Shown here one piece after another: positions 58,001-61,000 of a stretch of 64,000 bases of DNA. The stretch is from Escherichia coli (GTDB lineage Bacteria; Pseudomonadota; Gammaproteobacteria; Enterobacterales; Enterobacteriaceae), in NCBI RefSeq assembly GCF_030013595.1, contig NZ_CP122768.1, one strand, 5' to 3'. The position numbers are program-made. The first letter of the stretch is position 1. Every line of letters starts with the position of its first letter.

Positions 58001-61000
58001 TTTTGCATCTGCAGTCGACATTTCATTGCTGGTTGAAATATCACCTATTTTTTCATACTGCGATTCAACTTTTTCAAATTCCGCTTTGGTCATCAATTCA
58101 GCGGCATAGACATTGGTAACGGCTAACGCTAACGCACCGACTAACATTTTAGAGATTATTTTCATATTACGGCTCCAGAGTTGTTATCACACTATCACCC
58201 ACCCACATTATTGGGTTGATTAATAATTAGTTCAGTCAGGGCATAAACGCCAGTAACCGGAAATAAGACACTTTGTGATCTCTCTCGCACCCGATTATTT
58301 TTGGTAGAAATATGATGAAGTTACTTCACTTATTTATGGATGAAATCACTATGGATCCTTTGCACGCCGTTTACCTGACCGTAGGACTGTTCGTGATTAC
58401 TTTTTTTAATCCGGGAGCCAATCTCTTTGTGGTAGTACAAACCAGCCTGGCTTCCGGTCGACGCGCAGGGGTGCTGACCGGACTGGGCGTGGCGCTGGGC
58501 GATGCATTTTATTCCGGGTTGGGTTTGTTTGGTCTTGCAACGCTAATTACGCAGTGTGAGGAGATTTTTTCGCTTATCAGAATCGTCGGCGGCGCTTATC
58601 TCTTATGGTTTGCGTGGTGCAGCATGCGCCGCCAGTCAACACCGCAAATGAGCACACTACAACAACCGATTAACGCCCCCTGGTATGTCTTTTTTCGCCG
58701 CGGATTAATTACCGATCTCTCTAACCCGCAAACCGTTTTATTTTTTATCAGTATTTTCTCAGTAACATTAAATGCCGAAACACCAACATGGGCACGTTTA
58801 ATGGCCTGGGCGGGGATTGTGCTCGCATCAATTATCTGGCGAGTCTTTCTTAGTCAGGCGTTTTCTTTGCCCGCAATGCGTCGTGCTTATGGGCGTATGC
58901 AACGCGTTGCCAGTCGGGTTATTGGTGCAATTATTGGTGTATTCGCGCTACGCCTGATTTACGAAGGGGTGACGCAGCGGTGAGCAGATAATTTACTCTC
59001 TACGTAATCAACCTGATTTGCCGAATCCCGACCATCGGCGATGATAGCCCCCGTAATGCGTGGTCCTTATTTCCGATAAGTTTACTTGAGTCTTTAGCTT
59101 CCCATTTCAGCCCACTCTCCCCTGTGTGGGCTTTTTTCATTGCTCTGACCCGTCCTGAATAGCCAAACAATGGCAATGTTTCACTTTGCAGGGATGATAA
59201 TAAGGGGATCTGATTCAGAAGAGTTATGAAAAGTTGGACCGCCATCGAGGCCTCGAACCCCGTACCATACAACAATCCTGGTTGTCGTCTGCTCTTCCTG
59301 ATGAGCTAATGGCGGTTTTTGATATGAGCCTTACAGCATATTTTCTGTCAGGCTTGAGTGCGATGCGTAAGATACAGAAAAGACCCCACACAAACATGAT
59401 GGAATTATGATTTTTTTCATATGAATGTCAACCCACACATTCACAAAACATCTGCATGAGATCATTTTTTATACACCGTATAACTGCGAAACCACTGCTG
59501 ATGCTTTTTTAAGCGAAGCGTCGCCGATCACAACAAAATATCGGCGAAAAAGGCGGTGGAATGCCATTTGGCATACGGATATACAGATGAAATGATTACC
59601 TGCTTTGCGATTCACTCTCTGCTGGAATAACAACTCGCAGGTGGAACCCTTTCTGAACTAAAGAGTGTAGCGGATTTTAACGTGCTTATTTACAGGATAA
59701 TATCTGTCACCTAATTCCTGCACTCTATTAGATATCCATTGATTTAATCGCGCATCATCTCTGTATGTTTTTACGTCCAGAACAGAGAGCAATAACATCA
59801 CCAGTGATTCAGGAAAAACAGGGTAGATATTTTTTAAGTGTAATAATAATCCATGCGCAAGCGCCTGCTTAATGGGCGCGTCGGTCTCCGGGATAGACGA
59901 CATTTCGCGAAGCCATTTTTCCACATGCATACACTCTTTCCCTTTAGGGAAAAGTCTCAGCAAAGGCATATGGTGTTCAAGAAGAATACATTTGCAATCT
60001 GTTCGCACTGAATCGATAAACTGCACTAATTTCTTAAGCCCGGTAAAGCGTCCAGCCTGCACGTTTGCTTTAATATCAAGAAACGCATCGTCCTGGTCAT
60101 ATACCCAAACTGTCCCTTTTTGATTTTCAAGTATGCGAAAAACAAACTTAACCGGGTGATCAGGGTAATCCATCCAGTCATAAAATCCAGGGAAATCATT
60201 AAACTGCACATTTATGGTGAGTGCGTTATCGTCTGACCACTCACAGTCTCGTACGGCAGCCATGAGATGAATGAGTTTGTCGTCATCGACTAAATCATCA
60301 CGACAATCATAAGGATAATCATAATATTGTTTAATCAAAACCTTGAATATATCGACACAGGAGACCAGGGAGCTTTTGATATCCTCTGGTAACTGATTGT
60401 TTTTTACTGTATTAAGTATGCTTTGTTGCGTATATGGCATCAAATTATTGTGCGGAGCTTTTAATGATATCATCGCGATCTCTCTTAAATAAAAATAAAC
60501 GTCGCAGATAATAAAGCCCTGATTAAACCAGGCACTATCAGAAATCGCTCATAACTAACGTGTGAAGTATTGTGTACTGGAGGGAGTTAATTTAACAATT
60601 TGAATTTACGTTATAGGTTTTACTGCTACTTTGATATTATTTCGCTCTCCTTAACTAAAAAGTTAAGTGGAGAGCGAAGTTAATATGTTAAACCACAGGG
60701 TATTTATTAATTTTTTCAGTCTGTTAGTGTGCGATTATCGATAACAAAACGATATTTCACATCTCCTCGCAGCATTCGCTCATAGGCTTCATTAATTTGA
60801 TCGGCCCGAATCATCTCTATATCAGCCACGATGCCATGTTCGGCGCAAAAATCGAGCATCTCCTGAGTTTCTGGAATGCCGCCAATCATAGAACCGGCTA
60901 TCGCACGGCGTTTCATGATCAGGTTGAAAACTTCCGGCGATTTATGCGGTGTCGCAGGCGCACCAACCAGCGTCATGGTGCCATCACGCTTCAGCAAGGT

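What the first reader, a model, noticed from the sequence alone, without database searches (positions are those of the whole stretch)
60641..60678. Long hairpin without a U-tract downstream of yahK
A 16-bp stem with one bulge sits about 40 bp after the yahK stop and before yahL, with no T-run on either strand. It is not a canonical intrinsic terminator and may be an RNase III or RNase E processing site, or a protein-binding palindrome.
Basis: seen in the sequence. Interest (0 to 1): 0.2.

Follow-up and report, generated by a model that had tools for sequence, protein, structure and literature searches.

The report
Protective hairpin ending yahK mRNA
The hairpin is real and marks where the E. 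coli yahK messenger RNA ends in living cells: it is an ordinary example of the U-tract-less stem-loops that shield the 3' ends of mRNAs from degradation, so it is explained rather than surprising.

Summary
At window 60641-60678, 37 nt after the yahK stop on the minus strand, there is a 10+6 bp stem with a 2-nt bulge and a UUUU loop. It folds at -22.9 kcal/mol (z = -8.3) and has no U-tract.

Term-seq in E. coli K-12 (Adams et al. 2021, supplementary tables) places RNA 3' ends 3 and 5 nt after the stem. The same study lists a bicyclomycin-sensitive (Rho) region whose best coordinate lies 41 nt further on. The 78 nt after the hairpin have 16 C and 6 G.

The hairpin is single-copy and present in 5088 of 5426 complete E. 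coli genomes. I found five alleles, and all keep a strong stem. One deep lineage keeps it only through G·U pairs on the yahK-sense strand.

My best reading is that this is the 3'-terminal stem-loop of yahK mRNA. It stops 3'-to-5' exonucleases after the transcript is ended further downstream, most probably by Rho. This is the class described by Dar and Sorek (2018).

Rho dependence, exonuclease trimming and selection on the structure are inferred, not shown. The finding is a new member of a known kind and of low interest.

The parts
60716..61765 (-). yahK coding sequence (NADPH-dependent aldehyde reductase, 349 aa). The hairpin lies in its 3' untranslated region.
   Evidence: ORF list. K-12 annotation of the collinear region, b0325 at 342884-343933. 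Protein hits named YahK at 98-99% identity.
60641..60678 (-). Main hairpin in the yahK-sense RNA: UUCGCUCUCC-AC-UUAACU-UUUU-AGUUAA-GGAGAGCGAA. It has 10 + 6 bp, a 2-nt AC bulge and a UUUU loop. It corresponds to K-12 343971-344008.
   Evidence: dG -22.9 kcal/mol, z = -8.3.
60634..60686 (-). Extended structure. A lower A-U helix of 6 bp (60681-60686 pairing with 60634-60639) flanks the main stem.
   Evidence: MFE and centroid structures.
60636..60638 (-). Mapped RNA 3' ends. K-12 344013 (= window 60636; LB OD 2.0; mean 1131.6 reads) and 344011 (= window 60638; third sheet, M63 glucose according to the file caption; mean 744.6 reads). They lie 5 and 3 nt after the last paired base of the main stem.
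   Evidence: Adams et al. 2021 (PMC7815308), supplementary files 1 and 3. Coordinate mapping by exact match in K-12 and a gap-free alignment.
60563..60640 (-). C-rich, G-poor, A-rich unstructured tract directly after the hairpin (16 C against 6 G in 78 nt). It is a candidate Rho loading (rut) region. The best-scoring Rho coordinate, K-12 344049, equals window 60600.
   Evidence: Composition count. Rho termination region in Adams et al. supplementary file 2: -BCM 32/24, +BCM 83/225, Rho score 3.61, p = 1.8e-5.
60508..60532 (-). Weak terminator-like site further downstream (CCTGGTTTAATCAGG then GCTTTATTAT). It is a possible alternative site where transcription actually stops. No 3' end is listed there.
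   Evidence: Pattern scan. No K-12 3441xx entry in the Term-seq tables.
59658..60473 (-). yahL, the next gene downstream (AT-rich, Escherichia-only orphan). The hairpin lies 167 nt upstream of its start codon.
   Evidence: GC profile.

Best explanation
The hairpin is the 3'-terminal stem-loop of the yahK mRNA.

Proposed mechanism: RNA polymerase transcribes through the hairpin into the untranslated, C-rich and G-poor spacer. Transcription ends there or further on, most probably through Rho. 3'-to-5' exonucleases (PNPase, RNase II) then trim the tail back until the 16-bp stem stops them. This leaves a defined 3' end 3-5 nt past the stem and protects the yahK message.

Shown: the structure itself, the absence of a U-tract, the position of the in vivo 3' ends, a bicyclomycin effect on the region, and persistence of the stem across lineages.

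Inferred: that Rho terminates yahK transcripts specifically, that exonucleases create the observed ends, and that the stem is kept by selection and not merely tolerated.
For: 1. Steady-state 3' ends at K-12 344011 and 344013 lie 3 and 5 nt after the stem (343971-344008), in two growth conditions.

2. There is no U-tract. The tail score is 0.82 against a local median of 0.88, and the terminator scan gives no hit.

3. A Rho termination region has its best coordinate 41 nt downstream, with score 3.61 and p = 1.8e-5. The 78 nt after the stem have a C/G ratio of 2.67.

4. This is the pattern described genome-wide by Dar and Sorek 2018: Rho-dependent transcripts end immediately after stable stem-loops that lack U-rich tails, are followed by C-over-G enrichment, and are trimmed by PNPase and RNase II.

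5. Five alleles all keep a strong stem:
- K-12 type: -22.9 kcal/mol, 3950-3976 records.
- B2 type: a 2-nt deletion gives 7 + 7 bp around a 2x2 internal loop, -21.2 kcal/mol, 547 records.
- ST131 type: perfect 17-18 bp, -30.2 kcal/mol, 404 records.
- L096 type: a U-A to C-G double change, -22.6 kcal/mol.
- L093 type (yahK 89% nucleotide identity): two G·U pairs, so the sense RNA folds at -19.0 but the antisense only at -10.1 kcal/mol.

6. The element is single-copy, absent from phages, and found on plasmids only in F' elements or mislabelled chromosomes. It is therefore a local element of this 3' UTR.
Against: The Rho evidence is coarse and ambiguous. It rests on 800-nt windows with few reads. 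With bicyclomycin the downstream count (225) exceeds the upstream count (83), so part of the signal must come from transcripts that start downstream, in the AT-rich yahL region, and not from yahK read-through.

No 3' end was called in LB at OD 0.4, the condition closest to the Rho experiment, so no Rho score exists for the 3' end itself.

No exonuclease-mutant data for this locus could be read.

Covariation is not statistically significant. There are five alleles and one pair with changes on both sides, and 201-254 of 500 shuffles do as well.

The allele differences can be explained by mutation mechanisms alone: CT-repeat slippage, and template-switch 'correction' of a quasipalindrome.

Between the K-12 and B2 alleles the hairpin is not clearly better conserved than its flanks.
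Confidence: 0.72

Rival explanations
1. Non-canonical intrinsic terminator. The long hairpin alone, perhaps helped by NusA or NusG and the weak AUAAUAU tail, releases RNA polymerase a few nucleotides after the stem without Rho.
For: The 3' ends are precise and close to the stem. The stem is long and stable. yahK homologues in other genera are followed by hairpins with T-tracts, so a terminator is expected at this position.
Against: There is no U-tract: the tail score of 0.82 is at the local background level. The ends lie 3 and 5 nt after the stem, whereas from established knowledge intrinsic terminators usually release 7-9 nt after it, inside the U-tract. A bicyclomycin-sensitive region covers the site. 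Dar and Sorek found that U-poor terminal stem-loops are characteristic of Rho-dependent genes.
Confidence: 0.1
2. Endonuclease processing site. Either RNase III cuts the lower part of the extended helix, or RNase E cuts the A/U-rich single strand just after the stem. This would separate yahK from downstream RNA and leave the hairpin at the new 3' end.
For: With the lower A-U helix the structure reaches about 22 interrupted base pairs, close to the length RNase III needs. The sequence around 344013 (AAU|AUC) has U at +2, as in the RNase E consensus; that consensus is recalled from memory and was not tested. The 3' ends fall within the 3' strand of the lower helix.
Against: There is no direct evidence. 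The RNase III map of Altuvia et al. 2018 does not mention yahK in its text, and its tables are not held. RNase III normally makes paired cuts with 2-nt overhangs inside a G-C-containing stem, whereas here the lower helix is all A-U. Even if true, the hairpin would still act as the protective 3' structure.
Confidence: 0.08
3. DNA-level palindrome: an operator for a dimeric regulator of yahL, or a cruciform or recombination site.
For: It is a near-perfect palindrome in an AT-rich regulatory spacer upstream of yahL. Other perfect palindromes in the window are operators, for example lacO and the frmR upstream palindrome.
Against: The alleles change the spacing between half-sites by 2 nt on one arm only. 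The L093 lineage keeps pairing only as G·U on the sense RNA strand, which is C·A in the complementary strand (-19.0 against -10.1 kcal/mol). The site is 167 nt from the yahL start, with no promoter-like site nearby. It persists in B2 strains that lack yahL. The RNA 3' ends are explained without invoking DNA binding.
Confidence: 0.03
4. Neutral quasipalindrome. The hairpin arose and drifts through replication slippage and template switching. It blocks exonucleases as a physical side effect and has no selected role.
For: All allele differences lie in the 5' arm. They fit CT-dinucleotide slippage (K-12 to B2) and templated perfection of the palindrome: three changes within 10 nt in ST131 all make the 5' arm the exact complement of the 3' arm. 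Covariation is not significant. The hairpin is lineage-specific to Escherichia. IS1 has destroyed it in some strains.
Against: It is retained at -19 kcal/mol or stronger in every lineage examined, including one with 11% nucleotide divergence in yahK, and with strand-specific G·U pairs. It is present in 94% of genomes.
Confidence: 0.15

Closest known systems
Protective 3'-terminal stem-loops of Rho-dependent transcripts (Dar and Sorek 2018, NAR 46:6797; PMC6061677)
   Same: A stable stem-loop immediately upstream of a precise steady-state 3' end, with no U-rich tail, C-over-G enrichment downstream, and a bicyclomycin-sensitive region downstream.
   Different: The stem is longer (16 bp, or 17-18 bp in ST131) and more A/U-rich (7 G-C pairs of 16). 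Rho dependence and PNPase/RNase II trimming have not been shown for this locus. I could not read that paper's own gene tables.
REP/BIME elements acting as 3' mRNA stabilisers
   Same: Extragenic palindromes that fold in the RNA and stop 3' exonucleases. They are also associated with Rho-dependent ends.
   Different: This element is single-copy per genome and gives no Rfam match. By my own recollection, not tested against a REP model, it also lacks the GC-rich REP consensus. Dar and Sorek report that only 24% of Rho-dependent terminal stem-loops are REPs.
Intrinsic (Rho-independent) terminators
   Same: A stem-loop in a 3' UTR with an RNA 3' end just downstream.
   Different: There is no U-tract and the pattern scan does not detect it. 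The ends lie 3-5 nt after the stem, and the site sits in a bicyclomycin-sensitive region.
RNase III-generated protective 3' hairpins (phage T7 early mRNAs; lambda sib retroregulation). Recalled from memory.
   Same: A long hairpin in a 3' UTR whose processing determines the stability of the upstream message.
   Different: No RNase III data exist for this site. The observed ends lie outside the main stem, and the lower helix is all A-U, unlike the G-C-containing cleavage sites described by Altuvia et al..
Quasipalindrome template-switch mutation hotspots in E. coli (Ripley; Lovett laboratory). Recalled from memory.
   Same: In ST131 an imperfect palindrome becomes perfect through clustered changes that are all templated by the opposite arm.
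   Different: This concerns how the alleles arose, not what the hairpin does. No mutation-rate data exist for this site.

Membership tests
Protective 3' stem-loop of a Rho-dependent transcript (Dar and Sorek 2018) | An energetically stable stem-loop immediately upstream of a mapped, precise steady-state RNA 3' end | tested here: met
   dG -22.9 kcal/mol, z = -8.3. Term-seq ends at K-12 344011 and 344013, 3 and 5 nt after the stem end at 344008.
Protective 3' stem-loop of a Rho-dependent transcript (Dar and Sorek 2018) | Stem-loop not followed by a uridine-rich tract | tested here: met
   The tail is AUAAUAUCAAAGUAG with score 0.82, against a local median of 0.88. The same holds in all five alleles.
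Protective 3' stem-loop of a Rho-dependent transcript (Dar and Sorek 2018) | Rho dependence: bicyclomycin-induced read-through past the 3' end | tested here: inconclusive
   A Rho region is listed at 344049 with score 3.61 and p = 1.8e-5. However, the +BCM downstream reads exceed the upstream reads, the windows are 800 nt wide, and no score exists for the 3' end itself.
Protective 3' stem-loop of a Rho-dependent transcript (Dar and Sorek 2018) | C-over-G enrichment (rut-like) directly downstream | tested here: met
   16 C against 6 G in the first 78 nt after the stem.
Protective 3' stem-loop of a Rho-dependent transcript (Dar and Sorek 2018) | A longer 3' tail appears in pnp or rnb mutants (exonuclease trimming) | not testable with these tools
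   The supplementary tables of PMC6061677 are not held, and no raw RNA-seq is accessible.
Intrinsic terminator | A U-tract of about 7-9 nt directly after the stem, with the 3' end inside it | tested here: not met
Intrinsic terminator | Termination independent of Rho | tested here: inconclusive
   The site lies in a bicyclomycin-sensitive region, with the caveats given above.
REP/BIME repeat | Multi-copy dispersed family with a shared consensus | tested here: not met
   One copy per genome. The second 'places' appear only with palindromic queries and vanish with the asymmetric B2 query. No other match in the window. No Rfam family.
RNase III substrate | rnc-dependent paired cleavages with 2-nt 3' overhangs in a helix of about 20 bp or more | not testable with these tools
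   The extended helix has about 22 interrupted bp. The cleavage tables of PMC6212723 are not held, and yahK is absent from its main text.
Operator palindrome | Symmetric half-sites at fixed spacing, conserved as DNA sequence on both strands | tested here: not met
   One-arm indels change the spacing in the B2 and ST131 alleles. The L093 lineage keeps only G·U-compatible changes, at -19.0 for the sense strand against -10.1 kcal/mol for the antisense. Protein binding itself was not tested.

The most novel reading that the evidence does not exclude
The hairpin could be more than a passive exonuclease stop. It could be a tunable insulator between the housekeeping gene yahK and the AT-rich, Escherichia-only yahL-xtpA-yahM block. 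In that case lineage-specific alleles would set different yahK mRNA stability or read-through into the silenced block. The relevant alleles are the bulged stem in K-12, the internal loop in B2 and the perfected -30 kcal/mol stem in the pandemic clone ST131. The hairpin could also work as a genuine U-tract-independent terminator.
Probability: 0.07. Interest if true: 0.4.

Novelty: new member of a known kind. Interest (0 to 1): 0.15.

Why it matters
It assigns a concrete role to an unannotated 38-nt element. It defines the 3' end of the yahK mRNA, about 80 nt past the stop codon, which is why the published Term-seq tables classed that end as an 'orphan' and not as belonging to yahK. It adds a well-documented example to the class of U-tract-less terminal stem-loops. 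It also has a natural allelic series (bulged, internal-loop, perfect, G·U-bearing) that could be used to measure how stem quality affects mRNA 3' end protection. It does not change any general understanding.

Tried and rejected
- Rfam search of 59500-61900 at E <= 10 gave only two chance-level matches elsewhere.
- Search for further copies found none in the window. There is one copy per E. coli genome. The apparent second copies are the palindrome matching itself on the other strand.
- Test for a phage or plasmid origin found no phage match. The 13 plasmid-collection hits are all E. coli: large F'-like plasmids from laboratory K-12 cultures and megabase-size records that look like mislabelled chromosomes.
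The YahK homologues reached (Enterobacter, S. bongori, two Logan contigs) sit in other contexts with unrelated downstream hairpins. The hairpin could therefore not be traced outside Escherichia.
- A metagenome scan for variant 3' arms gave 13 hits, of which 12 are chance matches and 1 is a known allele.
- The formal covariation count on five alleles was not significant.
- There are no convincing small ORFs in the sense strand of the spacer.
- Raw MFE scanning of the window was uninformative, because GC-rich coding sequence folds as strongly.
- Supplementary tables of Dar and Sorek 2018, Altuvia 2018 and PMC9023263 are not held. The TERMITe and SMRT-Cappable-seq supplements do not mention the locus.
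- Genomic SELEX sigma-factor peaks lie inside yahL, not at the hairpin.
- L097, a metagenome contig with truncated yahK and yahL calls, was set aside as probably error-containing.

Full report
**What is there**

The window is E. coli DNA in the reverse orientation of K-12. yahK is the ORF at 60716-61765 (-) and yahL is the ORF at 59658-60473 (-). The spacer between them aligns without gaps to K-12 MG1655, where the genes are annotated b0325 and b0326.

The + strand at 60641-60678 reads TTCGCTCTCC-TTAACT-AAAA-AGTTAA-GT-GGAGAGCGAA. This gives a perfect 10-bp outer helix and a 6-bp inner helix. They are separated by a 2-nt bulge and closed by a 4-nt loop.

In the yahK-sense RNA the hairpin starts 37 nt after the stop codon. 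It folds at -22.9 kcal/mol, against -4.7 +/- 2.2 for dinucleotide shuffles (z = -8.3, 0 of 200 as stable). It survives in the fold of the whole 257-nt spacer. A further 6-bp A-U helix can extend it at the base.

**Is it more than chance?**

Perfect inverted repeats with arms of at least 10 nt and spacers of 3-20 nt occur at 10 loci in the 64-kb window (22 nested hits). A Markov model expects 1.6 hits. The others include lacO. Raw folding energy is not a useful yardstick here, because GC-rich coding sequence reaches similar values.

The absence of a U-tract is quantitative. The tail score is 0.82 on the sense strand and 1.36 on the other, against a local median of 0.88. The terminator scan is silent at the hairpin.

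**Experimental data already published**

The hairpin maps to K-12 343971-344008 (exact match). The curated Term-seq tables of Adams et al. 2021 (PMC7815308) list two RNA 3' ends on the + strand:
- 344013 in LB at OD 2.0, mean 1131.6 reads.
- 344011 in the third sheet (M63 glucose according to the file caption), mean 744.6 reads.

The printed flanking sequences show these ends fall at ...GAGCGAAAUAAU and ...GAGCGAAAUA, which is 5 and 3 nt past the stem. They are labelled 'orphan' only because they lie more than 50 nt after the yahK stop.

The same paper's table of Rho termination regions lists 344049 (+), 41 nt after the stem. Read counts are 32 upstream and 24 downstream without bicyclomycin, and 83 and 225 with it. 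The Rho score is 3.61 and p = 1.8e-5. The 78 nt following the hairpin contain 16 C and 6 G.

**Mechanism**

These features match the class defined by Dar and Sorek 2018 (PMC6061677). In that class, Rho-dependent transcripts have precise steady-state 3' ends immediately after stable stem-loops that lack U-rich tails. The ends are followed by C-over-G enrichment. They arise because Rho terminates diffusely downstream and PNPase or RNase II trim back to the stem. Only 24% of such stems are REP elements.

I therefore read the hairpin as the protective 3'-terminal stem-loop of the yahK mRNA.

Shown: the structure, the missing U-tract, the in vivo 3' ends, and a bicyclomycin effect on the region.

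Inferred: that Rho ends yahK transcripts in particular, and that exonucleases make the observed ends.

The Rho evidence is weak in one respect. With bicyclomycin the downstream count exceeds the upstream count, so part of the signal must start downstream in the AT-rich yahL region. A weak terminator-like site at 60508-60532 or an endonuclease cut could also provide the primary end. In each of these cases the role of the hairpin as the stable terminus is the same.

**Comparative evidence**

The hairpin is present in 5088 of 5426 complete E. coli genomes, once per genome. It is absent from phage records. On 'plasmids' it is found only in F' elements and mislabelled chromosomes.

I found five alleles:
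- **K-12 type:** bulged stem, -22.9 kcal/mol, identical in 3950-3976 records.
- **B2 type (UTI89, NRG857C):** loses CT from the 5' arm. It refolds as 7 bp, a 2x2 internal loop and 7 bp, at -21.2 kcal/mol, in 547 records.
- **ST131 type (EC958):** three changes within 10 nt of the 5' arm make it the exact complement of the 3' arm. The result is a perfect 17-18 bp stem at -30.2 kcal/mol, in 404 records.
- **L096/L100 type (yahK 96.6% nucleotide identity):** has a U-A to C-G double change and one C·A mismatch, at -22.6 kcal/mol.
- **L093/L095 type (yahK 89% nucleotide identity):** has two changes that give G·U pairs on the sense strand. The sense RNA folds at -19.0 kcal/mol and the antisense at -10.1.

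This strand asymmetry and the one-arm indels argue for an RNA structure on the yahK-sense strand and against a symmetric DNA operator.

The evidence is only suggestive, however. On five alleles, 92.8% of cells pair, against 39-53% when the partners are slid. Only one pair changes on both sides, and 201-254 of 500 shuffles do as well. The changes also fit pure mutation mechanisms, namely dinucleotide slippage and quasipalindrome template switching.

Outside Escherichia, YahK homologues sit in other contexts and are followed by unrelated hairpins, two of which have T-tracts. The element is therefore lineage-specific.

**Rivals**

- A U-tract-less intrinsic terminator is possible but disfavoured by the tail, the end positions and the bicyclomycin signal.
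- RNase III or RNase E processing cannot be tested with the data held. Even if true, it would leave the hairpin as the protective end.
- A protein-binding palindrome is disfavoured by the allele pattern and by retention of the hairpin in B2 strains that lack yahL.
- A neutral quasipalindrome with no selected role remains a fair possibility.

**Verdict**

This is a real feature, correctly described and already explained by a known mechanism. Published genome-wide tables support it, although nobody has discussed this locus. No paper held in the library links yahK to Rho or to a terminator. It is a new member of a known kind and of low interest.

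Noticed in passing
window 60534-60554 (-): TTATGAGCGATTTCTGATAGT is the longest invariant run of the yahK-yahL spacer. 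It is identical in all seven sequences aligned, including the lineage with 89% yahK identity and the B2 strains that lack yahL. It is better conserved than the hairpin. It contains a 4-codon mini-ORF (ATG AGC GAT TTC TGA) and lies 61-81 nt upstream of the yahL start. Its function is unknown.
   Followed up: partly
window 26038-26090: A perfect 21-bp-arm palindrome, ATATACTATAGGGGGGTATGC...GCATACCCCCCTATAGTATAT, at -33.3 kcal/mol. It is the strongest hairpin in the window. In K-12 the matching sequence lies at 379910-379954, just upstream of frmR, so it is probably the FrmR operator or promoter region.
   Followed up: partly
window 39149-39183: The inverted repeat TGTGTGAAATTGTGAGCGGATAACAATTTCACACA looks like the lac operator O1 region. 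I recognised it from the sequence and did not check it further.
   Followed up: no
L091 (strain SL124), L085 (strain SCAID WND1-2022), L003 (strain PSS-08-1): Independent insertion sequences have landed at or next to the hairpin, with loss of yahK-side DNA. IS1 sits at the 5' base of the stem in SL124. An IS1-family element sits in the loop in SCAID. An IS3-family element lies about 130 bp from the yahL start in PSS-08-1. This AT-rich spacer seems to be a recurrent IS target.
   Followed up: partly
L002 (UTI89), L084 (EC958), L085: The B2-type strains examined have no yahL between yahK and yahM, but keep the whole spacer up to the yahL start. They also carry an 11-nt deletion (CCTCCAGTACA) in the C-rich tract after the hairpin. 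yahM is frameshifted in EC958 and SCAID.
   Followed up: partly
window 59658-60473 (-): YahL has no Pfam domain. In a 5.8-billion-protein database, all eight of its strong matches that carry a source name are labelled E. coli, and they fall into three sequence types at 98-100%, 88% and 80% identity. It is an Escherichia-restricted orphan in AT-rich DNA. Genomic SELEX found strong binding of RpoH, FliA and FecI holoenzymes inside yahL.
   Followed up: partly
window 59224-59397 (-): A 57-aa ORF corresponds to the recently added K-12 small gene xtpA (b4845, annotated as 60 codons), which overlaps the start of yahM. The window strain seems to have a slightly shorter version.
   Followed up: no
window 60508-60532 (-): A weak terminator-like site, CCTGGTTTAATCAGG followed by GCTTTATTAT, lies 110 nt after the main hairpin. 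The stem is one pair weaker in K-12 (GGG to GAG). No Term-seq 3' end is listed there.
   Followed up: partly
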